The position numbers and the translations under genes were made by a program. DNA of 64,000 nucleotides from an uncultured Frankiaceae bacterium. Lineage in GTDB: Bacteria > Actinomycetota > Actinomycetes > BP-191. The notes beneath the pieces are model-generated. The model was given only the letters and a program-made list of their open reading frames with translations. It ran no database searches and was not told the DNA's origin. The stretch spans positions 5,007 through 69,006 of the forward strand of contig CAZYXZ010000005.1 in the NCBI GenBank assembly GCA_964651395.1, in the 5' to 3' direction. Shown here one piece after another: positions 43,394 through 64,000 of the stretch (within the stretch, counting starts at the first letter, position 1; each line of letters starts with the position of its first letter).

Positions 43394-43507
43394 GGCGTGA
43401 TCCTTCGCCGTGGTACGTGCCTGGTCATCGGCAGGTTCCGCCAGTGTTCGGCGGCGCCGATGGCGTGAACTACCCACAGACCGACTGCCGGTTCGTCCCG
43501 GCTATCG

Positions 43508-44683
43508 TTGAGCGGCCTCGCCGCGTTCGTGGCGGGACAGCTACGAGTTGACGGAGGCGGTGTGCCGACGGTGTCCGTTGTGTCGGCGGGCCGTGACCAG
43601 AGGCATCACATCAACGTGTTACGGGGTGCGTCTGCACTCGTCGTGATGCTTGTCCACATCTACATGGTCATCAGCGCACACCGCGACATCCACGGTGTGG
43701 CTGGGTACCGTGCGGTCGTCGTTGCTGCGCAGATGGCCGTGCGGTGCTTCTTCGTCCTGAGCGGCTATCTCTTGATCGACTCATGAATGCGTGAGCGCGC
43801 CGCTGGCCGGGGATGGGTGGCTCGGTTCTACTCAAGGCGTGGAGCGCGGCTCCTCCCGCTCTGGCTCGTAACCGGTCTCTGTCTCGTGCTGCTTCGCTCC
43901 TACAGAGACCTTTTCGATTTCTGGTCCACGCTTCAGTACTTCACGTTCACGCAGTTGTTCGCGCTTCGGCCACCGCTGCTGGATCCGGGATGGACGATCT
44001 ACTGCGAGGTGGTCTACTACGCGCTTCTCCCCATCGTCGTTGCGGCAGTGGCGCGCGTATCAGGCCGACCGATCAAGGCGCTGACCGTTCTTGGGTTCGC
44101 CGTCGCGGGAATCGCCCTGCGGCCTGTGCTGTCCAGCCTTGGTCTGGTGAGTCCGCGACTCCACGCACCCTTGTTCGCGGCCGATCTGTTCGTCATCTTC
44201 CTCGCGGGCGTGGCGCTCCGAATGGCTGAGCAGCGGCTCGTCGTGCTGCGGGGAAAGGGCACGCTCATGCTGGGCCTTGCCGGGGCAGCCGGCATCGTCG
44301 CAGTGTCAACGTACCCACCGCGACTCGGTGGCTCGGTGTTGTTCAATCTCGTCTCAATTCCGCCGCTCGTGGCCATTGTGGCCTCCGGAACGGCCCGCTC
44401 AAGAGTGTTGGCTTACGTCGGCCGCAGCGCCTACGGCGTGTACCTGCTTCATATGTTCTTCGTGGAGTGGGTGATCTTCCGTTTCGCCATCACGACGGAG
44501 TCGAGTCGAACCCGCGTCCTACTGATCGCAGTCACGATCGTGGCCGCCACCCTGCTCGCTGCCTTCATGCTGCACCGGACCGTGGAGCGCCCGGCCATTG
44601 AGTGGATGCGGCGCCGGTTGACTTCACGGCTCGCGAGGAGGCAGCTGGGCTCGGCGCCTGGCAGTGCTTCCAGCGTGGCGTGA
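43508..44683 (+). pseudogene. Acyltransferase-3 (OatA-like) family membrane acyltransferase interrupted by a single in-frame TGA at 43784..43786
   Basis: ORFs 43508..43786 and 43787..44683 are in the same frame, separated only by one TGA. The N-terminal piece carries the family motif (RHHINVLRGASALVVMLVHI...FFVLSGYLL) and the downstream piece has the remaining TM helices. Confidence 0.55.
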
Positions 44684-44801
44684 TCTACCCATCCGCGCAG
44701 CCGGTGTTGGCGGAAGTGGCCGATGTGGGCTGCTTCAGGTCGGCGCATCCTCGGGCCTGACGGCGCGGCACAGCCGGCCGCGAACGACCGGAGGCGAACC
44801 G

Positions 44802-53173: not shown

Positions 53174-53527
53174 ATGGTTGTACGAATGCTGGACACCGAG
53201 CAGGCGGACGGCGTGTTCCACGCCCTCGCCGACCCGACGCGCCGCGACATCGTGCGGCGCACGCTGACCACCGAGTACTCGGTGACCGCGCTCGCACGCT
53301 GCTTCCCGATGAGCTTCGCCGCGGTGCAGAAGCACGTGGCTGTCCTGGCAGCGGCAGGACTCGTCACCAAGGAGCGCCGCGGCCGGGAGCAGCTCGTCCG
53401 CGGTGACGTCCGCCAGCTCCGGAAGGCGGCGCGCATGTTGGACCAGCTGGAAGAGGTGTGGCGCAGCCGCATGGACAGGTTCGGCGAGGTGCTCGCCGAG
53501 ATCGACGAGGAAGAGGAGCAGTCATGA
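53174..53527 (+). CDS. ArsR/SmtB-family transcriptional regulator
   Basis: LADPTRRDIVRRL...SVTALA...FAAVQKHVAVLAAAGLV HTH. Confidence 0.75.
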   Translation: MVVRMLDTEQADGVFHALADPTRRDIVRRTLTTEYSVTALARCFPMSFAAVQKHVAVLAAAGLVTKERRGREQLVRGDVRQLRKAARMLDQLEEVWRSRMDRFGEVLAEIDEEEEQS

Positions 53528-54012
53528 CGGTCATCGATGTGACCAAGGACCCGGCGAGCCGATCGCTGACCATCACCTCGGAGTTCGACGCGACCCCAGA
53601 ACGGGTCTGGCGGCTGTGGGCGGAGCCGGCCCAGCTCAACCGCTGGTGGGGTCCTCCCGGGTGGCCGGCGACGTTCGTCGACCACGACCTGAGCCCGGGC
53701 GGCGACGTCCGCTACTACATGACCGGACCGGACGGCGAGAAGGCCGGCGGTTGGTGGCGGGTCAACGTCGTGGAGCCGCCCCACCGGCTGGAGGTGACCG
53801 ACGGCTTCGCCGACGAGTCCGGCAACCGCAACGATGCGATGCCCACCGTCGAGATGGTCGTGACGATCGCCGAGTCCGGCGGTCGTACGCGGATGACGAT
53901 CGCCTCGACGTACTCCACGCTCGAGGACATGGAGAAGGTCATCGCCATGGGCATGGAAGAGGGAATAACGCTGGCCCTCGGGCAGATCGACGCGCTGCTG
54001 TCGGAGGGCTAG
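53524..54012 (+). CDS. SRPBCC (AHSA1/Aha1-like) domain protein
   Basis: ATGA coupling with the ArsR gene. PERVWRLWAEPAQLNRWWGPPGW motif typical of the Aha1-like SRPBCC family. Confidence 0.7.
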   Translation: MTVIDVTKDPASRSLTITSEFDATPERVWRLWAEPAQLNRWWGPPGWPATFVDHDLSPGGDVRYYMTGPDGEKAGGWWRVNVVEPPHRLEVTDGFADESGNRNDAMPTVEMVVTIAESGGRTRMTIASTYSTLEDMEKVIAMGMEEGITLALGQIDALLSEG

Positions 54013-54039
54013 CTCCCCGTTCGGTCATCACGCCAGAGA

Positions 54040-54078
54040 ACCCCGGTCTTCAGGCTCTTGAAGACCGGGGTTCTGCTG
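54040..54078. terminator. Perfect 16-bp stem / 6-nt loop hairpin (AGAACCCCGGTCTTCA-ggctct-TGAAGACCGGGGTTCT)
   Basis: Read directly from the sequence. It lies just downstream of the SRPBCC gene and at the boundary of the integrative element. No U-tract follows. Confidence 0.45.
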
Positions 54079-54092
54079 TGTGGGGCGATGAG

Positions 54093-54139
54093 CGCGCTCG
54101 GAGGGACTCGAACCCCCAACCTTCTGATCCGTAGGTCCG
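54093..54139 (-). other. 3'-terminal tRNA fragment (T-arm GGGGG-TTCGAGT-CCCTC plus acceptor 3' strand CGAGCGC-G); putative att-site remnant
   Basis: The minus-strand reading gives a canonical T-stem-loop and a 7-nt acceptor 3' strand plus discriminator. No matching 5' acceptor strand or D-arm exists upstream, so this is not a complete tRNA. Confidence 0.4.
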
Positions 54140-54272
54140 CACGCCATGTGTCACCACGTATCAGAACGATCCCTGACCTGCGGTTTCACCGCACGAAGTG
54201 TCTCACGGTGCTTCACGACGTGTCACCGCGTTGCAGTAAGACTGCAGCACATCGCAGCGAAGGGCGATCGCT

Positions 54273-54851
54273 CTACGCGCCGCTCGCTCGTCCGAAGGCA
54301 GCTGCGCGGCGCCGCGCGATGAGCCGGGCGCCCGTGGCGTCCATCCGCCAGCGAGCGAGGTCGATGCTCACGCCGAACTGCAGGGCAACCTCCTCATTAG
54401 TTGCCCTTCGCCGAGCCAGTTGTTTGGCGGCCTCGAACGGGACGAGGAGCTCGCCCGCGATTTCAGCGGCTTCAGCTTCCTGCGCCTGGTCTGCGAGCCG
54501 GCAGCCTCGCTCGTTAACGAGGCTTGTCCCAAACTTGTGCTCTCCGAAGACGTGCGCCAGCTCGTGCCCCATTGTCGACCTGCGCCGCACCAAGGGATGT
54601 GAATCGTTCTCGACGATCACTGCTCCAGTTCCGAGCGGCACAAGGGCACCCGAAAAGCAATCCGGTCGGACGTTCATGAAGTAGTTGCGAACGTCGCTAG
54701 TGACCGGCAACAGGCTCAGCGAGAACACTTCGATCCCGTACAGCTCGGCGAGTTTCCACGGGTCCAGCGCATCCATCGGATCGAGGTCGATCTCCGTGCG
54801 TAGCTCACCGGCAAGCCGCTTGCACGCGGCCTTGTTGACGGTGCGCTTCAT
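54273..54851 (-). CDS. ImmA/IrrE-family metallo-endopeptidase
   Basis: HELAHV (HExxH). Sits immediately next to an XRE HTH gene in the same orientation. Confidence 0.75.
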   Translation of the reverse strand: MKRTVNKAACKRLAGELRTEIDLDPMDALDPWKLAELYGIEVFSLSLLPVTSDVRNYFMNVRPDCFSGALVPLGTGAVIVENDSHPLVRRRSTMGHELAHVFGEHKFGTSLVNERGCRLADQAQEAEAAEIAGELLVPFEAAKQLARRRATNEEVALQFGVSIDLARWRMDATGARLIARRRAAAFGRASGA

Positions 54852-54853
54852 CG

Positions 54854-55231
54854 TCAGACAGATCCTTTCCGCGCTGCCCGTGCGTGCTTTACCGTGGCCC
54901 GGATCACTTCCTCAAGGTAGGCGACATCGCGCTTGTCGAGGTCTTGGCGCGCCCGCAGCAGCGGGGCGAGCTGGGTCACGAGGTCAGGTTCAGGCTGGGC
55001 CGCCCGATCGGACTCGATGTCGATCATGAAGCTCTCGGCCGGCATGTTCAGCCAGCGAACCAGAGTCGCGAAACCGTCGGCGTCCGGACGCAAGTCATTG
55101 CCTAGACGCGACAGCAGCGACGGGCTCACGCCGATGTCCTTTGCAAGTTGTCGCCACGACAAGCCACGTGTCGTCCGTTCCGCATCGAGCGCGGCGTATA
55201 GGCCCTGCACGTCGATCTTCGTGGTTGCCAT
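54854..55231 (-). CDS. XRE-family helix-turn-helix transcriptional regulator
   Basis: LSWRQLAKDIGVSPSLLSRLGN HTH. Start at the internal ATG (55231); the preceding part of the ORF is Cys/Arg-rich. Confidence 0.7.
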   Translation of the reverse strand: MATTKIDVQGLYAALDAERTTRGLSWRQLAKDIGVSPSLLSRLGNDLRPDADGFATLVRWLNMPAESFMIDIESDRAAQPEPDLVTQLAPLLRARQDLDKRDVAYLEEVIRATVKHARAARKGSV

Positions 55232-55313
55232 GAGTCCCCTCGGCGGCCGACCGAGAGTGTCGCACTTCCGGGCCACTGCTTGAAAGTCGACACGCACTGT
55301 TCTACAGTCGGCG

Positions 55314-55337
55314 CAATGCGTCACAACCGACGCATTG
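55314..55337. promoter_or_regulatory. 9-bp inverted repeat CAATGCGTC-n6-GACGCATTG between the XRE gene and the Ubl-E1 cassette
   Basis: Read directly from the sequence. Lies in the divergent intergenic region 55232..55362. Confidence 0.4.
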
Positions 55338-55362
55338 TCGATCGTTGAGCAGAGGAGTGGAA

Positions 55363-55623
55363 GTGACGACCGCAGCCCAGAGCGATCACAAGACGAAGGT
55401 AGTCACGATCATCGTCAACACCAGGCCTCACGAGTGGCTGGAGAAGGACATCACCTTCGAGCAGGCAGTCGAGCTCGCGTTTCCGGGCCAGCCGTACGAC
55501 CCCGCCGGAACGACGGTCGAATACAGCCGGGGCCACGGTCCGGACAAGTCGCTGCGGCCCGGAGAGCGTGTGCATGTAAAGGACGGCATGGTCTTCGATG
55601 TCGAAGCCGCCAACCGGTCCTGA
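55363..55623 (+). CDS. Multiubiquitin-domain (beta-grasp, Ubl) protein
   Basis: AGGAG RBS 5 nt before the GTG. KVVTIIVNTRPHEW...ITFEQAVELAF...VHVKDGMVFDV matches the recalled consensus of the prokaryotic Multiubiquitin family (I-VNG--YEV---ITG-QIL-LAG...L--G--F-TVP). Confidence 0.55.
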   Translation: MTTAAQSDHKTKVVTIIVNTRPHEWLEKDITFEQAVELAFPGQPYDPAGTTVEYSRGHGPDKSLRPGERVHVKDGMVFDVEAANRS

Positions 55624-56758
55624 AGACTCGATCTCCAGGCTGTACTCAGACGGGTACGACGTTCTCCTCGAGAACGGTCACCTGAAGGTCCGCGTCCCCT
55701 ACCTGTCGCCGAGCGGACCCCGTGGCGACGGGCGCCTGGTGCTCCCCGTCAACGACACCGATGGTGTCCTGAATGATGCCCTCAGCGACCACACCATCTG
55801 GTTCTCCGGCGAGGAGCCGCGGGACGAACGTGGCGCACCGCTTGGTGGCGCGAACCAGCGCGACCTCGGCAATGGCGACACTGCCAACTTCATGCTGTCC
55901 TTCAAGCCGCCAAGCGGCAGTTACGCCAGCCTGTACGAGAAGGTCCGCGGGTACGCACGCATCCTGAGTACCCCGGCGGTACAACTGGATCCCGTTCTCT
56001 CGGCCACACCAGGCGCGGCTTTTCAAGTGGTGGAAGACGGATTGCCGTTCGTGTACCGCGACACAAACACCACGCGAGCCGGCCTCACGGAGCTAAGCAA
56101 TCTCTTTCGCGGCCATACCGTTGCGATCGTCGGGGTCGGAGGTACCGGGAGTTACATTCTTGATCAGGTTGCGAAGACGTGGGTCGATCGAATCATCCTC
56201 ATCGACGGCGACGTCTTCGAAAACCACAACGCGTTCCGAGCGCCGGGTGCTGCCTCACACGAAGCGCTTCAGAAGCGCCAGAGCAAGGCCGAGTACTTCG
56301 CGGCCGAGTACTCCCGTATGCACACCGGTATCACTCCGCACGCGGAACATCTGACGGCCGATAACCTGGACCTGTTGGCGGACGCAACGTTCGTCTTCCT
56401 CGCGGCGGCCGATGCGAAGGCGCGCCCTGACATCATGGTGTGGCTCCGGGAGCGCAGCATCCCATTCATCGACGTGGGAATGGGTGTGAGCATCGGCGAC
56501 AGTGGGCTCACCGGGCTGCTGAAGGTCACCTCGTACCCGATTGGCGCGGACGCGCTGCCACTGCAGAGTGCGGACACCGCGCCTGGTGAGGATGACTACG
56601 GCAGCAACATCCAAGTTGCCGACCTGAATGCCCTCAACGCGGTGCTGGCGGTCATCCAGTGGAAGCGTCAGCTCGGCTACTTCGCTGCCCATTCGTTGAC
56701 GACCGAAACCGTTTACAAGCTCTACCTCAACGAGCTGCGCAACGGCGACACCGAATGA
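55598..56758 (+). CDS. ThiF/MoeB-family E1-like adenylyltransferase with about 170-aa N-terminal extension; contains no cysteine
   Basis: IVGVGGTGSYILDQVAKTWVDRIILIDGDVFENHNAFR is the ThiF/E1 nucleotide-binding motif. The 386-aa translation has zero Cys residues. Confidence 0.75.
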   Translation: MSKPPTGPEDSISRLYSDGYDVLLENGHLKVRVPYLSPSGPRGDGRLVLPVNDTDGVLNDALSDHTIWFSGEEPRDERGAPLGGANQRDLGNGDTANFMLSFKPPSGSYASLYEKVRGYARILSTPAVQLDPVLSATPGAAFQVVEDGLPFVYRDTNTTRAGLTELSNLFRGHTVAIVGVGGTGSYILDQVAKTWVDRIILIDGDVFENHNAFRAPGAASHEALQKRQSKAEYFAAEYSRMHTGITPHAEHLTADNLDLLADATFVFLAAADAKARPDIMVWLRERSIPFIDVGMGVSIGDSGLTGLLKVTSYPIGADALPLQSADTAPGEDDYGSNIQVADLNALNAVLAVIQWKRQLGYFAAHSLTTETVYKLYLNELRNGDTE

Positions 56759-57153
56759 GTCGCGCGGAGCGCTTTGTAGCGCAGATTGTAGACGCTTTCC
56801 CGTCGCCACTGCAGCCGGGCGTGTTGTACGTCTCCACCGCGTACTCGACCGCGGCACACATCTGTCCTTGCGGGTGCGGAAGTGAGGTGGTCACCAAGCT
56901 CTCGCCAGCCCGCTGGAAGGTGATCTTCGACGGCGAGGTTTCGCTAAGCCCGTCCGTCGCAAGTACCGGACTCCCCTGCAACTCGCACTACTTCATCACC
57001 CGTGGTGCAGTGGATTGGCGTCGGAAGCTCGACTCGAGTGAGGCTGCGCTAACCCAAGCCGTCGATCGTGACGCACTTCATCAGCATCGGGTCCCATCGA
57101 AGAGCAACTGGTTCGCCAGACTGCGGCAAGGGATCGGACGCTTGTTCACGTAG
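56755..57153 (+). CDS. Small CPCGCG-motif protein (DUF6527-like; candidate non-canonical E2-like partner)
   Basis: ATGA overlap with the E1-like gene. 132 aa with AHICPCGCGSEVVT plus a fourth Cys (GLPCNSH). Confidence 0.5.
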   Translation: MSRAERFVAQIVDAFPSPLQPGVLYVSTAYSTAAHICPCGCGSEVVTKLSPARWKVIFDGEVSLSPSVASTGLPCNSHYFITRGAVDWRRKLDSSEAALTQAVDRDALHQHRVPSKSNWFARLRQGIGRLFT

Positions 57154-57168
57154 CTCGCGCTCGAGCAC

Positions 57169-58611
57169 CTAGTCACGGCCGGTCAATCGGTTGGACGTCG
57201 CCGGCTCAACATCTTGCTGTTGCTCGCCGTGACCTGGCGGCGACTCGGCGTTCTGTGTCTCTTCGAGCGCCCTGGCGTACGCGTCCATGGCCGCAGCGGA
57301 GGCGGCGGCTTGATCAAGGTTGGGGTCGAGGTAGCCGCGTGTGGTCCGGTCGTCTGAGTGGCCGAGGTACTCGCGGGCGAACTCGATCGGCAAGCCGGAC
57401 CGCACGATGATCGTCGCGCCAGTGTGACGAAGTCGATGCGGCGTGGCGCGAGCGACGCCGACGCTCGTAGCCACTCGTTGCCAAGCAGCACGCAAGTTGG
57501 CGTCGTCGAGTTGGGTTCCGATGTCGGTCGTGAAGACCAGGTCCTGGTCGGCCCACCGCAGCGGAGATCCGACAGCCGCCATGTGCTCGTTGAATGCCCG
57601 GATCTGCTCTTGCTGACGGGCGTGATGCTCAATCAGTTCGCGATGAAGGACCTCGGGCAGCTTCAACAGGCGAAGCTTGTGGCCCTTCGAGTCGCTCACA
57701 ACGCGCTCGGTCCGCAACGGTGAGCCGTCGCGTCGCTTCTGCCGCCGCACGTTGGCCCCGAAGTAGACCTCGCCGTTCGCCAGGTTGATGCGCGACCATC
57801 GCAGCTCGAGGATCTCGCCGATGCGAGCGGCGAGCATGAAGAGGGCGAGCCAGAGCGAACGGCGCGCGTCCGCGGCCATCGCCGGCCACAGCAATTTCAT
57901 CTCTTCCTTGGTGTGGCCGGTCACACGGGTGGCTGGCGCTCGCTTCCCGCCGGGGAGTTTGCAGTCCATCGCCGGGTTGTAGGGGATGCGGTTGTCGCGC
58001 TTGGCGTCCTGCAGCGATCGCCGGAGCGCCGCAAGCATCCCCTTCAGCGAGGAATATGAGCGCGTCTTCGTCGACGGGTTCTCGATCCGCCGCCGGGCGT
58101 TCGCCTGCCGCTTGGCGATCTCGTTCTTCGACCGATGACCCTTGCCTTCGCCGGTGCGTCGCGGTCCTCCCCGAACGACGACGTCGCGTGACTTCTTCGC
58201 GAGCCACGCCTGGATCAGTGGCGTCGTGAGCTCCTCGAGTTTCCACCCACCGAGTTCCGGCACGACGTGGTTCTCCCAGTCGGCCTCGTAGCCGTCGCGA
58301 GTGGAGGACTCGATGGCGCCGATCGTCACCTCGTCGTCCAGGATGGCGAACCAGCGAACGCCCCACTCGGTAATCGTCATCGACTCACTCGTGGTGGCGC
58401 CCTGCATGCGCTGCGCAATCCGCAGTTCGATGAGCTTGTCCGTGACTTCCTGCTTGGTCTTGCCGTACACCGTTGCGCGCCGCCGTACCCCATCTGGGCC
58501 CCGTACGCCGGTCAGCTGGCCGATCCACCTTCCGTCCTGGCGCTTGTGGATGGAGCCTTCGCCGTAGCCGCGCCTCTTCTTCGGCTTCTTCTCGTCCGCC
58601 TGCTCGGCCAT
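57169..58611 (-). CDS. int: Tyrosine-type site-specific integrase
   Basis: C-terminal catalytic region (RLRHTGATIIVRSG...LGHSDDRTTRGY has the R..HxxR..Y pattern). Start at Met106 of the ORF-track ORF (MAEQADEKKPKKRRGYGEGSI). Confidence 0.85.
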   Translation of the reverse strand: MAEQADEKKPKKRRGYGEGSIHKRQDGRWIGQLTGVRGPDGVRRRATVYGKTKQEVTDKLIELRIAQRMQGATTSESMTITEWGVRWFAILDDEVTIGAIESSTRDGYEADWENHVVPELGGWKLEELTTPLIQAWLAKKSRDVVVRGGPRRTGEGKGHRSKNEIAKRQANARRRIENPSTKTRSYSSLKGMLAALRRSLQDAKRDNRIPYNPAMDCKLPGGKRAPATRVTGHTKEEMKLLWPAMAADARRSLWLALFMLAARIGEILELRWSRINLANGEVYFGANVRRQKRRDGSPLRTERVVSDSKGHKLRLLKLPEVLHRELIEHHARQQEQIRAFNEHMAAVGSPLRWADQDLVFTTDIGTQLDDANLRAAWQRVATSVGVARATPHRLRHTGATIIVRSGLPIEFAREYLGHSDDRTTRGYLDPNLDQAAASAAAMDAYARALEETQNAESPPGHGEQQQDVEPATSNRLTGRD

Positions 58612-58805
58612 CAGCTGGCCTTCCGCATCGAGACGAGTTGATCGAGCGAACTGCGGGGGATACGCAGCTTGCCGCGGATCTGGATTCCCGGGAGCTCGCC
58701 CGCGTCCACCATGCGGTAGATCGACGAGCGCGAGATCGCGAGCAGAGCGGCCGCCTGGGCAGTGGTGCAGAGGAGCGATTCGTGCGGTTCGTTGAGCGTG
58801 TTCAT
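58611..58805 (-). CDS. xis: Excisionase-like HTH DNA-binding protein
   Basis: 64 aa. AQAAALLAISRSSIYRMVDAGELPGIQIRGKLRI is MerR-like/Xis HTH. Its stop overlaps the integrase start by 1 nt. Confidence 0.6.
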   Translation of the reverse strand: MNTLNEPHESLLCTTAQAAALLAISRSSIYRMVDAGELPGIQIRGKLRIPRSSLDQLVSMRKAS

Positions 58806-58897
58806 CGAGAGTCCTTCGTTCGAGGATCGCGTTTGCCGCGACGTCCAACCCCGGGCTAACCGCCGGCTTCACCGCGTGGGTGGGCCGGAGTTGGCGC

Positions 58898-59206
58898 TCA
58901 CGGCGGGGTATCTGTTGGCGACCCATCTCGGCCGTGGAGGAGCACTTCCAGTGCCTCGTAGAGGCCGGTCACGAGCCGCGTCGGATCGCGCTCGTGCGAT
59001 GCGTTGATGACGAGTGCGAGAAGCTCGGCAAGCGCGCCCGCGAGCCGTTCCGTCGCGGCCTCAGCCGCCGCGATGTTGTCCAGCACGTAGGAGTCGAGCC
59101 CCACGAGCCATGCCTCGGCGATCTCTGTGCGAAGCGCGTGGACGCCGTCCACGAGCCCGAGGAACGAGGGCAGCGCACCCTCGGCCGGCAGGACGAGGTC
59201 GGTCAT
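58898..59206 (-). CDS. Hypothetical protein (element-borne)
   Basis: Strong GGAGGTGAG RBS before the ATG at 59206. 102 aa, helical. Confidence 0.4.
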   Translation of the reverse strand: MTDLVLPAEGALPSFLGLVDGVHALRTEIAEAWLVGLDSYVLDNIAAAEAATERLAGALAELLALVINASHERDPTRLVTGLYEALEVLLHGRDGSPTDTPP

Positions 59207-59282
59207 GGAACTCACCTCCGACTCGACCGTGCCGCACTCAAGCCCCACGGCGACTCCCCGTGCCCGCGCATAAGCGACGGTT

Positions 59283-59300
59283 TTGGACACGCGTGTCCAA
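59283..59300. repeat. Perfect 18-bp palindrome TTGGACACGCGTGTCCAA flanked by GTTTTGG direct repeats
   Basis: Read directly from the sequence. Lies in the divergent intergenic region 59207..59415. Confidence 0.5.
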
Positions 59301-59415
59301 GGCGTTTTGGTCGCGGCAGAGCACGGACCCGTCACTCCGGGACCGCGGGCCTGCGCGTTGCCGACATTCCGAACCGAGAGCCGGCGTCGACGACGCCCAG
59401 AGCAAGGAGAGCCAC

Positions 59416-60576
59416 GTGGACGCGCGACGTGCACCCCGACCGAGCTCAGCCGGGATCCGCCAGCTGACGACCGTTGTCGACGTCGAACCGCCGCTAGTGG
59501 GCGTGCACGACGGCACTGCCGGGTGGTGGCCGCTTCGAGTGCTAGCGGAGTCCCGCTTGGTGACAGCTGGGCTGCGAGACGCGCTCGGCCAGGCCATGGA
59601 CCAGCGAGTGGAGGGCGGGCGCGCCGCAGTCGCCTGGACGATCGTCCAACTGGAACGTCTCGGCTGGGTCCGCCCGCTCGACCTGCCACCGCAGAAGCCC
59701 GTGGAGCGTTTCGCACTGCGTCAGGACGCCGAGCGCGTCGCTCGGTCGATGGGCGGGCTGCGCGGGGGGAAAGCAGCCGTGATTGCGGCGACTCTGATCG
59801 ACAAGCCGAAGGGCCTGACCGCAGACGACTTGCGCATCGCGGTCAACGGCGGCGACCCACAGAAGGTGCCCGCGTCCGAAGACCGGGCGTACTACTCGGC
59901 GCTCGCGGTCCTTCAGGCCAAGGGCGCGCTCACCAAGACGAGCTCCGATCGCGTGCCCAAGGTCCTGTGGCTCACACCCTTCGGTGCGGGGTGCTTGTCG
60001 TTGATGGCACGGAGCGGGCGGTGGGGTCTGCCGCACGGCGCGCGGGCCGTCACGATCAGCGCACACCGACGGCATGCTGTCCTCATCGCTGACGCACTAG
60101 CTGCGCTGCTGAAAGTATTTCCCGAGGCCGTCGACACCGTCGTCTGCGACCGAGTCCGCCGGTCCAAGCCCGTCGTCGACATGCCTAACGCGCCGACCAG
60201 CGGCCGTATGCGGCCCGATGTGTACGCGCCGGTGACCTTGGCGGACGGGTCGCGATGCCTGCTCGTCATCGAGTGGGAAACGAAGGGACGGGAGAGCGTC
60301 GAACGGCACCTGATCAACAGCACGAACCTGCTGCATTCCGAGGTACTCCGTGAAGACTCCCCCTACTACCGCATGGTCACGGTCGTCGCGACTGCCCGGA
60401 ACGGTGGGACGCGAGACGGACTTGTGAGCGACACCCTCGCGAGTATGGACCGGGCCGGGTACGGGCAGCTGACGCGATCGCTCGATGTCCGGGTGGCTAC
60501 CCGCGCTGCGCTGACGCGGGTGCTGCAGGACATCAAGGCTGAGGGGAGCTATTGGCGTGAAAGGAGGCTGTCCTGA
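59416..60576 (+). CDS. Hypothetical protein, possibly replication/relaxation-related (element-borne)
   Basis: AAGGAGA RBS 5 nt before the GTG. 386 aa. No firm family recognised. Confidence 0.4.
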   Translation: MDARRAPRPSSAGIRQLTTVVDVEPPLVGVHDGTAGWWPLRVLAESRLVTAGLRDALGQAMDQRVEGGRAAVAWTIVQLERLGWVRPLDLPPQKPVERFALRQDAERVARSMGGLRGGKAAVIAATLIDKPKGLTADDLRIAVNGGDPQKVPASEDRAYYSALAVLQAKGALTKTSSDRVPKVLWLTPFGAGCLSLMARSGRWGLPHGARAVTISAHRRHAVLIADALAALLKVFPEAVDTVVCDRVRRSKPVVDMPNAPTSGRMRPDVYAPVTLADGSRCLLVIEWETKGRESVERHLINSTNLLHSEVLREDSPYYRMVTVVATARNGGTRDGLVSDTLASMDRAGYGQLTRSLDVRVATRAALTRVLQDIKAEGSYWRERRLS

Positions 60577-60813: not shown

Positions 60814-61635
60814 CTAGCTGCTCGACCCGGGACTGGGCACGGCTGTCACCCGGAGACAGTTCGGAGTTGCCGACGCCGAGGGGAACGGAGAGGCGGACGG
60901 CGAGGGGGACAGTCGGCGCGAGTCGAAGTCGGCCTCTGGGACCCGGACGTCTTCAGGAAGGTTGAAGTAGCCACCGGCATACGCCCGACAACTCGACTGG
61001 TCGTCAGGACCCGGACCGTAGTGATGCTGTGAGGAGTACTTCCAGAACTTGAAGACGTCGGTCTTGTCGTTGTACTCAGCTGTGAGACCGAGAGTGCGGT
61101 CGAAGCCGACCTCCCAGAGGCGGCCGTCGGAGCGGTCGCGTAGGAAGTAGTGCATGAGGCCGCGCCAAGTGATCTTCAGGTAGCCCTCGTCATCGACGGC
61201 GAGGGCGAACGTGCTGTGCCGAACCTCGACCGGGCGGAAGTACTCGAACCGGGCCGGCTGGAACCGCACGAGGAAGTTCAACGCCATCAGCGGGCGTTCT
61301 CGCATCTGCCTGACCAGGTCGGTTACGACGTAGGGCGAAGTGGGATCAGCTCCGTTCAGGACCGTGGCCGCGTCGAAGTGACTCGCCTGGACGAAGTCGC
61401 GGAAGAGGTTGAGGACGCGCGCCACGACGTCGGCCGGAAAGTCCTCGACCGCGGCAGGGGTCGGGAGCCCGAGGTCCGGCGGCGCGGCCAGCTCGGCTGC
61501 GCTGTACGACCGGGTGGGCGATGGTGGCGCAGACGGTTCGGCAGCCGGCTTGCCGGAGTCGCGCCCGCAGGCGACCACGCCCATGAGGGCCATCAGAACG
61601 ACGATGCTCCAGCCTCGATCGCGCCGGCTTCCCAT
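60814..61635 (-). CDS. Putative lipoprotein
   Basis: Start at the internal ATG 61635. Signal peptide with lipobox MALMGVVACG. The upstream 219 aa of the ORF is Arg/Pro-rich. Confidence 0.5.
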   Translation of the reverse strand: MGSRRDRGWSIVVLMALMGVVACGRDSGKPAAEPSAPPSPTRSYSAAELAAPPDLGLPTPAAVEDFPADVVARVLNLFRDFVQASHFDAATVLNGADPTSPYVVTDLVRQMRERPLMALNFLVRFQPARFEYFRPVEVRHSTFALAVDDEGYLKITWRGLMHYFLRDRSDGRLWEVGFDRTLGLTAEYNDKTDVFKFWKYSSQHHYGPGPDDQSSCRAYAGGYFNLPEDVRVPEADFDSRRLSPSPSASPFPSASATPNCLRVTAVPSPGSSS

Positions 61636-61696: not shown

Positions 61697-61909
61697 GTGG
61701 AAGGCGCACTGCAGAAGACGCTGGGGCGGAACCTGCGCCGCTGGCGGGAGCAGCGCGGTTTATCCCAAGAGGCACTCGCCGACCGCCTCGGGCTCCACCG
61801 CACGTACATCGGCGGAATCGAGCGCGGCGAGCGCAACCTGACGCTGCGCTCTGTGGAGCGCCTCGCAGCGGATCTCAAAGTCCAACCCCTGGATCTTCTG
61901 CAGGAATAG
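61697..61909 (+). CDS. XRE-family (Cro/C1-type) HTH regulator
   Basis: 70 aa. [38 protein letters not shown]. Confidence 0.65.
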
Positions 61910-63253: not shown

Positions 63254-63763
63254 ATGGACGAAGCCGCTCTTTCATTAGCCGAGGACTTTGACCTCGTCCG
63301 CTTCAAGGCGGTGGTTGCCTCGAAGTGTCCGTCTTCTCTGTCCGAGCGGGACAAGGAGGACGTGGCCGCCGACATGTTGGCCGACGCGGTGAGAACTTCT
63401 CGCGCGACCGGCATTCCTGTCGGGGTCGCGGCCATCCAGAACCTGACGCGGCCGCGTTACTACGAGCGGCCAGCCGCGAAGGCCAAGGTCGCGCCGGGCC
63501 CGCTGCCCGGCGGAGAAGCCGGGGATGAGACAACACCCGACATCGAAGACCCGCGCGATCTGGTCGCGGACCTCGAGGTGCGAGACCTGGTTGAGCGGCT
63601 GCCGCTCCAGCAGCGCCGTGCCTACCTGCTCGTCGTGGAGTACGCGATGACGCACGCGGAGGCTGCAGTGGCCATGTCGGTGACGCCTTCTACGGTGCGA
63701 GAGCACCTCGGCAAGGCATGTGCCGCGCTGCGGCAAGCCTGGGAGGCCGCCCAACAGAGTTAA
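63254..63763 (+). CDS. Sigma-70 family region-4-containing protein (ECF-like sigma factor)
   Basis: AAGGGAGA RBS. C-terminal LPLQQRRAYLLVVEYAMTHAEAAVAMSVTPSTVREHLGKACAALRQ resembles region 4. Confidence 0.5.
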   Translation: MDEAALSLAEDFDLVRFKAVVASKCPSSLSERDKEDVAADMLADAVRTSRATGIPVGVAAIQNLTRPRYYERPAAKAKVAPGPLPGGEAGDETTPDIEDPRDLVADLEVRDLVERLPLQQRRAYLLVVEYAMTHAEAAVAMSVTPSTVREHLGKACAALRQAWEAAQQS

Positions 63764-63840
63764 CACAGACTCCCCTCCGAACCCGGAAGGGGCTCCCGCG
63801 CGGCGCAAGAGCCGCCGCGCCAAGTGACAAGGAGACAGCA

Positions 63841-64000
63841 ATGAAGACGACCAAGAACACGGCACAGCAGCACCTCGCGAGCCAGCGAGAGTTCGTCAAG
63901 AGTCGGCATCTGGAGAGCCAGCGAGCGTTCGCAGCTCGGAGCGAAGGAGGCTCCGGGCTGGTGGACGACACGATGCTCGCGGCGTCCATGCGCTCGGTGC
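63841..64000 (+). CDS. Hypothetical protein, N-terminal fragment (continues beyond the window)
   Basis: AAGGAGA RBS before the ATG at 63841. Open to the window end. Confidence 0.3.
   Translation, partial: MKTTKNTAQQHLASQREFVKSRHLESQRAFAARSEGGSGLVDDTMLAASMRSV

What the first reader, a model, noticed from the sequence alone, without database searches (positions are those of the whole stretch)
54040..58926. Integrative element bounded by a tRNA 3' remnant, with ImmA/XRE, integrase-excisionase and defence-like cargo
At 54093..54139 the minus strand reads as a canonical tRNA T-arm plus acceptor 3' strand with no 5' half. This is the signature of an att core left by tRNA-targeting integrases. To the right lie ImmA/XRE, the Ubl-E1 cassette, and a tyrosine integrase whose start overlaps an excisionase. 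GC is visibly lower than the flanking chromosome. The orientation of the remnant (3' end pointing left) predicts the intact tRNA and the other att copy lie to the right, beyond 64000. A perfect 16-bp hairpin sits at 54040..54078 exactly at the junction.
Basis: partly seen in the sequence, partly recalled or inferred. Interest (0 to 1): 0.55.

Follow-up and report, generated by a model that had tools for sequence, protein, structure and literature searches.

The report
Defence-carrying island inserted in tRNA-Arg
A mobile DNA island has inserted into an arginine tRNA gene of an uncultured high-GC actinobacterium, left a 42-base copy of the tRNA's 3' part at its left edge, and carries its own integrase/excisionase plus two anti-phage-type gene cassettes; this is an ordinary, well-understood kind of element.

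Summary
Window 54093..54134 (minus strand) is identical over 42 nt to an intact tRNA-Arg(ACG), from the first base of the anticodon loop to the discriminator base. The window has no tRNA gene, no 5' half and no second copy of this core. To the right lie a CapP/CapH-like ImmA/XRE pair, a complete Type II Bub (bacterial ubiquitination-like) operon (BubA, BubBD, BubE), and a 480-aa tyrosine integrase whose ATG overlaps the stop codon of an HTH_17 excisionase. After about 4.5 kb of unknown genes comes a sigma-like/HATPase_c_3/DruA-like module that runs past the window end.

The best reading is an integrative genomic island of at least 13 kb in tRNA-Arg(ACG), with the remnant as the att copy that abuts the original chromosomal flank. 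The 16-bp hairpin lies on the chromosomal side and is most likely a terminator.

The intact tRNA and second att copy predicted beyond 64 kb could not be tested. The source contig (NCBI, 74,492 nt) could not be retrieved, and no close relatives exist in the collections. One caveat: in distantly related viral contigs with the same core, the integrase sits on the other side of the core, so a composite island is not excluded.

Verdict: new member of a known kind; modest interest.

The parts
54037..54074 (.). Perfect 16-bp hairpin with a 6-nt loop. It lies on the chromosomal side, between the AHSA1 stop (54012) and the tRNA 3' end (54093). It is probably a bidirectional intrinsic terminator without a U-tract and is not part of the element.
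   Evidence: dG -41.6 kcal/mol, z -5.97; position read
54093..54134 (-). 42-nt 3' remnant of tRNA-Arg(ACG), from the anticodon loop to the discriminator base. This is the att core copy that abuts the chromosomal flank (P-core-B').
   Evidence: 42/42 identity to the intact tRNA in L019; no tRNA in the window
54135..54272 (.). Element-side arm next to the core. It carries 3-4 copies of GTGTCACC-like repeats (54148, 54183, 54198, 54220). These are candidate arm-type integrase binding sites and are not statistically compelling.
54273..54851 (-). CapP-like ImmA/IrrE zinc metallopeptidase; the HELAH motif is present.
   Evidence: Pfam Peptidase_M78 3.3e-14; PADLOC capP 3.7e-12; sequence
54854..55231 (-). 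CapH-like XRE-family HTH repressor, 125 aa.
   Evidence: Pfam HTH_31/HTH_3; weak PADLOC capH hit, 0.0073; gene model matches the NCBI call
55280..55337 (+). Promoter-like site (TTGAAA-17-TACAGT) followed by a perfect palindrome, CAATGCGTC-N6-GACGCATTG. This is the candidate operator upstream of bubA.
55363..55623 (+). BubA, a ubiquitin-like protein of 86 aa.
   Evidence: Pfam Multi_ubiq 2.2e-16; GC3 0.82 against 0.62 for the antisense ORF; matches the NCBI call
55598..56758 (+). BubBD, an E2-E1 fusion of 386 aa.
   Evidence: Pfam DUF6791 3.1e-25 and ThiF 6.1e-13; best PDB hit is Citrobacter BubCD; family-conserved H65, S101, R214 and Y334 are retained
56755..57153 (+). BubE, a DUF6527 Ser-His protease with a C4 zinc motif, 132 aa.
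   Evidence: Pfam DUF6527 1.3e-21; CPCGC...S...C..H visible in the sequence
57169..58611 (-). Tyrosine integrase, 480 aa, with an N-terminal arm-binding-type region. The catalytic residues R (ARIGE), HxxR (HRLRH), H (LGH) and Y (RGY) are visible.
   Evidence: Pfam Phage_integrase 1.2e-18, PHROG_1 1.6e-44; 27-29% identity to mycobacteriophage integrases; sequence
58611..58805 (-). Excisionase / recombination directionality factor, 64 aa. Its stop codon overlaps the int start codon (TGATG).
   Evidence: Pfam HTH_17 2.5e-14, PHROG excisionase
58898..59206 (-). 102-aa ORF upstream of xis; function unknown.
   Evidence: gene call on the Logan and NCBI contigs; no family hit
59416..60576 (+). 386-aa ORF; function unknown.
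   Evidence: no hits; AF2 pLDDT 35
60814..61635 (-). 273-aa protein that looks like a lipoprotein.
   Evidence: weak LppK hit only
61697..61909 (+). Second XRE-family HTH regulator, 70 aa.
   Evidence: Pfam HTH_3 1.3e-16
63254..63763 (+). Protein with a sigma-70 region-4-like domain; first gene of a conserved three-gene module.
   Evidence: Pfam annotation on the Logan contig, PF08281; NCBIfam sigma hits; homologues upstream of HATPase-DruA in L113, L114 and L115
63841..64000 (+). N-terminus of a HATPase_c_3 (MORC/MutL-type GHKL) ATPase that continues beyond the window. It is followed on the source contig by the DruA-like protein P0058.
   Evidence: Pfam HATPase_c_3 8.7e-15 on L002; P0058 is on the same 74,492-nt contig

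Best explanation
An integrative genomic island has recombined into the 3' part of a tRNA-Arg(ACG) gene. It starts at window 54134 and runs rightward past 64.9 kb, probably to at least ~67.5 kb.

How the junction arose. [quoted passage not shown] The element's own copy of that core rebuilt the tRNA at the far, unseen end. The original chromosomal 3' part was displaced and remains as the 42-nt remnant at 54093-54134. It is still followed by the tRNA's native downstream flank, namely the terminator hairpin and the convergent AHSA1 gene. Excision would need the integrase together with the overlapping HTH_17 excisionase.

Cargo. The island carries two defence-type cassettes.
1. Between int and the att copy sits a Type II Bub operon (BubA, a Ubl; BubBD, an E2-E1 fusion; BubE, a Ser-His protease). 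It is transcribed divergently from a CapH/CapP-like repressor/protease pair. CapH probably binds the palindrome at 55314-55337 and is cleaved by CapP after DNA damage or infection. That would de-repress conjugation of BubA through Tyr and Ser oxyester intermediates.
2. Further right sits a sigma-like/HATPase_c_3/DruA-like module.

Shown here: the remnant, the gene identities, the conserved catalytic residues and the gene order. Inferred: the second att copy, current mobility, the regulatory circuit and the anti-phage role.
For: Remnant.
- It is 42/42 identical to an intact tRNA-Arg(ACG) and starts exactly at the first base of the anticodon loop.
- It is unique in the window, with 0 matches expected by chance.
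- The window has no tRNA and no 5' half.

The same core is a used attachment site.
- The 25-mer core is found in 25 IMG/VR viral contigs.
- In about 15 of them only the 3' fragment is present, beginning 1-2 nt from the same boundary (gACTACGG).
- In 8 of them a tyrosine integrase that is 26-29% identical to the window's lies next to it.

Recombination genes.
- The integrase has its catalytic residues.
- The excisionase overlaps its start.
- The order xis, int, then att downstream of int matches the actinomycete element layout described in PMC2440964.

Foreign origin.
- GC drops from 0.688 to 0.628 in the cargo block.
- Every island protein is a singleton at 90% identity among about 15 billion proteins.

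A second sequence context for the core.
- An independent Logan assembly contig (L031) ends exactly 30 nt (k-1) inside the core, at the identity boundary. This is expected if the reads contain a second sequence that shares the core but has a different upstream context.

Cargo.
- Pfam hits are Multi_ubiq, DUF6791+ThiF and DUF6527.
- BubBD retains S101, H65, R214 and Y334, which are invariant or nearly so in 54 family members. They correspond to the residue classes defined in PMC11601596.
- CapP hit at 3.7e-12.
- A promoter-like site and a palindrome lie upstream of bubA.

Rightward extent.
- The Logan contig L002 continues the window to 64,923.
- The DruA-like protein P0058 lies on the same 74,492-nt contig but not in the window.
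Against: - The second att copy and the intact tRNA were never seen, so the island's right end and its current mobility are unproven.
- The integrase is 3 kb from the core and runs in the same direction as the tRNA fragment. In all 8 viral contigs with a detected relative (and, judging by ORF position only, 2 more), the integrase lies on the other side of the core and converges on it. The window geometry is therefore not the one seen in its nearest, though distant, relatives.
- GC and GC3 to the right of 58.8 kb are close to chromosomal values, so composition does not mark that part as foreign.
- No empty site was found in relatives.
- The Logan contig break could equally be caused by tRNA-Arg genes of other organisms in that sample.
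Confidence: 0.75

Rival explanations
1. Composite or tandem island. The remnant was produced by a different integrase that sits next to the intact tRNA at the unseen far end, in the phage-type geometry. The xis-int pair at 57.2-58.8 kb then belongs to a second element, nested or adjacent, or is a passenger. In that case the Bub block plus int and the 59-68 kb block have separate histories.
For: - In the viral contigs that share this core, the integrase is always on the 3' side of the core and convergent with it. The window's int is on the 5' side, co-directional and 3 kb away.
- GC is heterogeneous: 0.628, 0.657 and 0.678 for the three blocks.
- Tandem actinomycete elements in a tRNA-Arg gene are documented (PMC3218068).
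Against: - No second core copy, full or partial, lies between 54.1 and 64.9 kb to separate two elements.
- The viral integrases are only 26-29% identical, so their geometry need not transfer to this one.
- An att site downstream of int is the normal layout of actinomycete elements.
Confidence: 0.15
2. Fossil island. The element integrated long ago and can no longer excise, either because the far end has been lost or rearranged or because the recombination functions have decayed. The remnant would then be only a scar.
For: - The far end is unseen.
- No replication, transfer or phage structural genes were recognised in the visible 10.8 kb.
Against: - The remnant has no substitution in 42 nt relative to a functional tRNA.
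- int and xis are full-length with a translationally coupled overlap, and the catalytic residues are present.
Confidence: 0.08
3. The tRNA-like stretch is a chance match, or the whole region is ordinary chromosome or a complete prophage.
For: Rfam and ARAGORN do not report the fragment.
Against: - 42/42 identity with 0 matches expected by chance; the detectors require a full cloverleaf.
- PHROGs recognises only int, xis and the sigma-like protein. No capsid, portal, terminase or tail genes appear in the visible part.
Confidence: 0.02

Closest known systems
tRNA-targeting integrative elements of Actinobacteria (AICEs such as pSAM2, SLP1 and pMEA300; PMC2440964, PMC3218068)
   Same: - A tyrosine integrase with an upstream, overlapping xis.
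- An att site downstream of int.
- An att identity segment that covers the 3' part of a tRNA gene from the anticodon loop.
- XRE-family regulators on the element.
- A size of order 10-25 kb.
- tRNA-Arg is a documented target.
   Different: - No FtsK/SpoIIIE-type transfer gene, Rep/Prim-Pol gene or Nudix gene was recognised in the visible 10.8 kb.
- 3 kb of defence cargo lies between int and the att core, whereas in AICEs the att site is directly downstream of int.
- The integrase has no relative above about 30% identity in any collection searched.
Type II Bub (6E.2 / DUF6527) bacterial ubiquitination-like operons with CapH+CapP regulators (PMC11601596)
   Same: - The gene set and order BubA (Multi_ubiq), BubBD (E2-E1 fusion), BubE (DUF6527).
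- No JAB peptidase.
- The conserved Ser and His (E2 domain), Arg (adenylation) and crossover-loop Tyr are retained.
- A divergent CapH/CapP-like pair, as in 31% of the 544 Bub operons described.
   Different: - A high-GC actinobacterial member, at most 63% identical to any representative.
- BubA ends in ...EAANRS rather than an exposed glycine, so its reactive C-terminus is undefined.
- The CapH match is weak (E 0.0073).
Temperate actinophage-like contigs that carry a tRNA-Arg(ACG) 3' fragment as attP (IMG/VR contigs L009, L011, L013, L021, L023, L025, L026, L028)
   Same: - The same 25-42-nt core, with the 5' boundary at the anticodon loop.
- A homologous L5/Giles-type tyrosine integrase.
   Different: - The integrase is only 26-29% identical.
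- It lies on the opposite side of the core and converges on it.
- Those contigs are classified as viral, whereas the window shows no phage structural genes.
Druantia DruA (DUF4338) and Mza MzaB-type GHKL ATPases
   Same: - The protein following the HATPase gene, P0058, has a full DruA domain (4.2e-68).
- The ATPase has a weak MzaB/MutL-type N-terminus.
   Different: - The remaining Druantia genes (DruB-E) or Mza genes are not seen next to the module in any of the related loci examined.
- The module is instead sigma-like + HATPase_c_3 + DruA with a C-terminal extension, and sometimes SIR2.

Membership tests
tRNA-inserted integrative element (tyrosine-recombinase genomic island) | Tyrosine recombinase with an intact catalytic domain | tested here: met
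   Pfam Phage_integrase 1.2e-18 and PHROG_1 1.6e-44. R (ARIGE), HRLRH, LGH and RGY motifs were read in the sequence.
tRNA-inserted integrative element (tyrosine-recombinase genomic island) | Excisionase / recombination directionality factor | tested here: met
   HTH_17 2.5e-14 and PHROG excisionase families. The stop overlaps the int start.
tRNA-inserted integrative element (tyrosine-recombinase genomic island) | Partial 3' copy of the target tRNA at one boundary, abutting chromosomal DNA | tested here: met
   42/42 identity to tRNA-Arg(ACG) nucleotides 32-73. The terminator hairpin and high-GC3 chromosomal genes lie beyond it.
tRNA-inserted integrative element (tyrosine-recombinase genomic island) | Second direct copy of the core inside an intact tRNA at the other boundary | not testable with these tools
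   It is not in the window or in the extension to 64,923. The source contig was not retrievable.
tRNA-inserted integrative element (tyrosine-recombinase genomic island) | Absence from related genomes (empty site) | tested here: inconclusive
   The closest relatives of the flanking AHSA1 gene are at most 59% identical, and none has a tRNA-Arg downstream. All flank proteins are singletons.
Actinomycete integrative and conjugative element (AICE) | FtsK/SpoIIIE-type DNA translocase and a replication initiator (RepSA, RepAM or Prim-Pol) upstream of xis-int | tested here: not met
   No such Pfam, NCBIfam or PHROG hit for any ORF between 58.9 and 64.9 kb. The part beyond 64.9 kb is unseen, so this holds for the visible part only.
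Actinomycete integrative and conjugative element (AICE) | attP directly downstream of int | tested here: inconclusive
   The att core is downstream of int, but 3 kb of cargo separates them.
Type II Bub operon | Stand-alone Ubl (BubA) | tested here: met
   Multi_ubiq 2.2e-16 for the 86-aa protein.
Type II Bub operon | E2-E1 fusion (BubBD) with an invariant E2 Ser (plus His and Lys), an adenylation Arg and a crossover-loop Tyr instead of Cys | tested here: met
   DUF6791+ThiF. In the 54-sequence alignment, H65, R214 and Y334 are invariant and S101 is at least 90% conserved, and all are present in the window protein. The residue classes are those of PMC11601596. Correspondence to E. coli S106, R219 and Y342 is inferred from position, not from an alignment with that protein. 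The accompanying Lys was not confirmed: the Lys after S101 is a majority residue but is not in the >=90% conserved list.
Type II Bub operon | DUF6527 protein (BubE) with a C4 zinc site and a Ser-His dyad | tested here: met
   DUF6527 1.3e-21. CPCGC, a Ser-rich SLSPS segment, and C-N-S-H were read in the sequence.
Type II Bub operon | No JAB/JAMM peptidase | tested here: met
   No JAB hit in any ORF of the cassette.
CapH/CapP regulator pair | HTH repressor plus an ImmA-type metallopeptidase, encoded divergently from the controlled operon | tested here: met
   CapP 3.7e-12, CapH 0.0073 (weak) in PADLOC. HELAH motif present. The orientation is divergent, with a palindrome in the intergenic region. 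Cleavage and DNA-damage sensing were not tested.
Temperate prophage | Capsid, portal, terminase or tail genes | tested here: not met
   PHROGs recognises only int, xis and a sigma-like protein in the visible part.
Druantia | DruA together with the DruB-E genes (or DruH/DruE) | tested here: not met
   In the source genome the DNA beyond 64.9 kb is unseen. In the related loci L003, L113 and L115 no partner beyond HATPase, the sigma-like protein and sometimes SIR2 is conserved.

The most novel reading that the evidence does not exclude
The island may be a compact integrative element with no conjugation or phage genes, whose payload is essentially defence. On this reading the interval between int and the att site acts as a cargo slot, here holding a CapH/CapP-controlled Type II Bub operon. 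The sigma-like/HATPase_c_3/DruA(+SIR2) set would be an as yet undescribed three- to four-gene anti-phage system that travels on unrelated integrative backbones across Actinomycetota.
Probability: 0.3. Interest if true: 0.45.

Novelty: new member of a known kind. Interest (0 to 1): 0.27.

Why it matters
The element itself is a textbook case of insertion into a tRNA gene. Three points give it some modest value.

1. It places a Type II Bub operon on a mobile island next to a second defence-type module. The biological role of Bub operons is still only inferred from genomic context, so this adds context evidence for an anti-phage role.
2. It points to a recurrent sigma-like/HATPase_c_3/DruA module, seen in 7 loci, that is not a described system.
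3. It shows that tRNA-Arg(ACG) is a heavily used attachment site in high-GC Actinomycetota, used by both viral and non-viral elements.

None of this changes current understanding.

Tried and rejected
Extending the sequence to the right.
- Exact-protein look-ups found only short Logan contigs. L002 reaches 64,923.
- The NCBI copy, a contig of 74,492 nt, is not indexed.
- The genome-contig scan returned only relatives at 58-62% identity, not the source.
- An exact 47-mer scan of the metagenome contigs found nothing.
- A chimeric protein query, meant to fish out the C-terminal Logan fragment, failed with only one unrelated hit.
- A DruA profile search did find the source protein P0058, but no near-identical fragment that would allow a further step.

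Close relatives of the integrase.
- None in viral contigs.
- None in the 5.8-billion-protein database apart from the protein itself.

Empty site.
- 80 metagenome loci with relatives of AHSA1 were recovered, all at most 59% identical. None has a tRNA-Arg downstream.

orf386.
- No Pfam, PHROG, PADLOC, NCBIfam, plasmid or PDB hit.
- The single-sequence AlphaFold model had pLDDT 35, so no fold search was run.

Readings rejected.
- The 84-aa minus-strand ORF at 55321-55575 is antisense to BubA. It has lower GC3 and is not called in the public record.
- The 585-aa integrase reading that starts at 58926 is rejected. The real start is 58611.
- The hairpin as a recombination feature is rejected.
- A second att copy near 59 kb is rejected; none was found.

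Full report
OBSERVATION

The minus strand of window 54093..54134 reads CTACGGATCAGAAGGTTGGGGGTTCGAGTCCCTCCGAGCGCG. ARAGORN finds no tRNA anywhere in the 64 kb. Rfam reports nothing there at E <= 1, as expected for half a cloverleaf.

I scanned IMG/VR for the 25-mer T-arm/acceptor core and got 25 contigs. ARAGORN calls an intact tRNA-Arg(ACG) over the core in several of them, for example L019 at 31-105. Lining the sequences up shows that the window is identical to that tRNA over 42 consecutive nucleotides. These run from the first base of the anticodon loop (nt 32) to the discriminator base (nt 73). The match breaks at 54135, where the 5' strand of the anticodon stem should be.

The 30-mer core is unique in the window, with 0 matches in 100 shuffles. 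The 31-nt 5' half of the tRNA is absent at up to 3 mismatches. No partial second copy lies in 53.9-64 kb.

The hairpin also exists. It has perfect 16-bp arms at 54037-54052 and 54059-54074, with -41.6 kcal/mol and z = -6. It lies between the stop of an AHSA1/SRPBCC gene (53524-54012, Pfam 4e-25) and the tRNA 3' end. That places it 18 nt outside the tRNA on the chromosomal side. I read it as the shared terminator of two convergent genes, not as part of the recombination site.

ANATOMY

Gene models come from ORF lists, GC3, gene calls on Logan contigs and exact look-ups in the public protein collection. From left to right:
- CapP-like ImmA/M78 peptidase, 54273-54851 (-). Pfam 3.3e-14; PADLOC capP 3.7e-12; HELAH motif.
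- CapH-like XRE repressor, 54854-55231 (-).
- A 131-nt divergent control region. It holds a promoter-like site (55280-55308) and a perfect 9-bp palindrome (55314-55322 and 55329-55337).
- BubA, 55363-55623 (+). Multi_ubiq 2.2e-16.
- BubBD, 55598-56758 (+). DUF6791 3.1e-25 and ThiF 6.1e-13.
- BubE, 56755-57153 (+). DUF6527 1.3e-21.
- Tyrosine integrase, 57169-58611 (-), only 15 nt beyond BubE and convergent with it. Pfam 1.2e-18; PHROG_1 1.6e-44.
- HTH_17 excisionase, 58611-58805 (-). Pfam 2.5e-14. Its TGA overlaps the int ATG.

Further right are a 102-aa ORF, a 386-aa ORF without any recognisable family, a lipoprotein-like gene, a second XRE and several small ORFs. Then come a protein with a sigma-70 region-4-like domain (63254-63763) and a HATPase_c_3 ATPase that starts at 63841 and runs off the window.

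The 84-aa minus-strand ORF at 55321-55575 is antisense to BubA and is spurious. The 585-aa integrase reading that gave the finding's end coordinate of 58926 is too long by 105 codons.

CARGO 1: A TYPE II BUB OPERON

The cassette is a Type II Bub (bacterial ubiquitination-like, formerly 6E.2/DUF6527) operon as defined in PMC11601596. That definition is a stand-alone Ubl, an E2-E1 fusion, a DUF6527 Ser-His protease and no JAB peptidase. In that study, 31% of 544 operons are paired with CapH+CapP.

BubBD belongs to a compact family. It has 384 representative clusters at E <= 1e-30, almost all about 390 aa with full-length matches. In an alignment of the window protein with 53 representatives, H65, R214 and Y334 are invariant and S101 (in an FS.KP motif) is at least 90% conserved. 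These fit the E2 Ser and His, the adenylation Arg and the crossover-loop Tyr that the paper shows to be catalytic. The best solved-structure match is Citrobacter BubCD.

The likely working, by inference from that paper and from the CapH/CapP work it cites, is as follows.
1. CapH represses the bub promoter through the palindrome.
2. DNA damage or infection activates CapP to cleave CapH.
3. BubBD adenylates BubA and passes it through Tyr and Ser oxyesters to targets.
4. BubE processes or removes the Ubl.

One unknown remains. BubA here ends in ...EAANRS rather than a glycine.

CARGO 2 AND THE EXTENT OF THE ISLAND

A Logan contig, L002, matches the window from 57670 to its end at 64000 and runs on to 64,923 in window coordinates.

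Relatives of the HATPase gene in three MAGs are always followed by a roughly 600-aa protein with a full DruA (DUF4338) domain. Where the upstream DNA is present (L003 and L004), they are preceded by a small sigma-like protein. A profile of those DruA-like proteins recovered P0058 (596 aa, DruA 4.2e-68). P0058 lies on the same 74,492-nt NCBI contig as every other island protein and is not encoded in the window. By synteny it follows the HATPase gene, so the island reaches at least about 67.5 kb.

The same three-gene module occurs in two other settings.
- In a Leifsonia aquatica defence island, with an added SIR2 gene (L113).
- On a Prim-Pol/AAA_25 element whose HATPase is 72% identical to the window's (L115).

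In L003 and L004 the module lies 1-3 kb from unrelated tyrosine integrases. In L004 the integrase plus module are bracketed by a perfect 25-nt direct repeat 9,184 nt apart. The module is not a described system. It has only a weak MzaB-type hit, and no other Druantia genes are present.

WHAT COULD NOT BE SHOWN

It rests on sound logic. A 3' fragment followed in tRNA sense by the native flank is the P-core-B' junction, so the element must lie upstream of it, which is to the right.

I could not reach that end.
- The source genome is not among the GTDB representatives.
- It is not in the JGI metagenomes.
- Its NCBI contig is not indexed for look-up.
- All island and flank proteins are singletons at 90% identity.
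- The integrase has no relative closer than about 29% anywhere I could search.
- An empty-site search through the flanking AHSA1 gene returned only paralogue-level relatives (at most 59% identity) with no adjacent tRNA-Arg.

One indirect hint exists. The Logan contig L031 equals window 54105..55331, so it ends exactly 30 nt (k-1) into the core, counted from the identity boundary at 54134. A de Bruijn assembler does this when the reads hold a second sequence that shares the core but has a different upstream context. That second sequence could be the rebuilt tRNA of this genome. It could equally be the tRNA-Arg of other organisms in the sample.

GEOMETRY AND RIVAL READINGS

About 15 of the IMG/VR contigs carry only the 3' fragment of tRNA-Arg(ACG), starting at gACTACGG, which is within 1-2 nt of the window's boundary. 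Eight of them have a homologous tyrosine integrase (26-29% identity) close by. This shows that the core is a much-used attachment site.

In all eight of those contigs the integrase lies on the 3' side of the core and converges on it. Two more contigs (L018, L010) have an unannotated ORF of integrase size in that same position. In the window, the integrase is on the 5' side, co-directional with the tRNA fragment, and 3 kb away.

An att site downstream of xis-int is the standard layout of actinomycete integrative elements (PMC2440964). At under 30% identity the viral geometry need not apply. Even so, the mismatch keeps a composite reading alive, at about 0.15. In that reading another integrase near the unseen tRNA made the remnant, and the int-xis pair plus Bub form a separate module.

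Two features argue against a dead scar (about 0.08). The remnant has no substitutions, and int-xis are intact and translationally coupled. A chance match or a classical prophage is excluded for the visible part.

The element cannot be called an AICE. No FtsK-type translocase, Rep or Prim-Pol gene was found between 58.9 and 64.9 kb.

Composition separates only the Bub block clearly from the chromosome (GC 0.628 against 0.688). The right part is at 0.678.

VERDICT

This is an integrative genomic island in tRNA-Arg(ACG). It has a clean 42-nt att remnant, its own integrase and excisionase, a CapH/CapP-regulated Type II Bub operon and a second defence-type module. It is a new member of well-known kinds, and its interest is modest.

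Noticed in passing
window 63254-64000 and beyond; L003 9398-13689; L004 9366-13644; L005 1178-4836; L113 7580-13002; L115 1747-6112: A conserved module occurs in 7 loci from different Actinomycetota. It consists of a sigma-70 region-4-like protein of about 170 aa, a HATPase_c_3 ATPase of about 620 aa, and a protein of about 600 aa with a DruA/DUF4338 domain and a C-terminal extension. In Leifsonia aquatica an SIR2 gene is added. The module sits next to integrases or inside defence islands. It matches no described system as a whole (weak MzaB hit only; no other Druantia genes).
   Followed up: partly
L031 (= window 54105-55331): An independent Logan assembly contig from run SRR13766249 ends exactly 30 nt (k-1) inside the 42-nt att core. 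This is the signature of an assembly-graph branch at a repeated core.
   Followed up: partly
L006, L008-L013, L015, L018, L021, L023, L025, L026, L028-L030 (IMG/VR contigs): About 15 viral contigs carry only the 3' part of tRNA-Arg(ACG), starting at the anticodon loop. In 8 of them a convergent tyrosine integrase lies on the 3' side. This tRNA is therefore a hot attachment site for actinophage-like viruses.
   Followed up: partly
L004 5253-5277 and 14437-14461: A perfect 25-nt direct repeat (ACATTGGACCCCAAATTGGACCCCA) lies 9,184 nt apart and brackets an integrase plus the sigma-like/HATPase/DruA module. A second integrase follows just beyond. This may be a roughly 9-kb integrative element, or a tandem pair, carrying the same module.
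   Followed up: no
window 59280-59303: A near-perfect palindrome (GTTTTGGACACGCGTGTCCAAGGC, core TTGGACACGCGTGTCCAA) lies in the divergent intergenic region between the 102-aa ORF and the 386-aa ORF. It could be an operator, an origin or a terminator.
   Followed up: no
window 54137-54231: Three to four GTGTCACC / GTGTCTCAC / GTTTCACC repeats lie within 100 nt of the att core on the element side. They are candidate arm-type integrase sites. The motif is not enriched window-wide (24 matches against 41 expected at 2 mismatches).
   Followed up: partly
window 55321-55575 (-): An 84-aa ORF lies antisense to bubA. Its GC3 is 0.62 against 0.82 for bubA, and it is absent from the public gene calls. 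It is a spurious ORF.
   Followed up: yes
window 43500-44700: A strong negative AT skew (-0.31) with lower GC coincides with a membrane acyltransferase gene (Acyl_transf_3, 43787-44683). It lies among methyltransferase, glycosyltransferase and LuxR genes. This is ordinary composition for a hydrophobic protein.
   Followed up: yes
window 55363-55623: BubA ends in ...DVEAANRS and has no C-terminal glycine. The residue that is adenylated, or a processing step (perhaps by BubE), is undefined.
   Followed up: no
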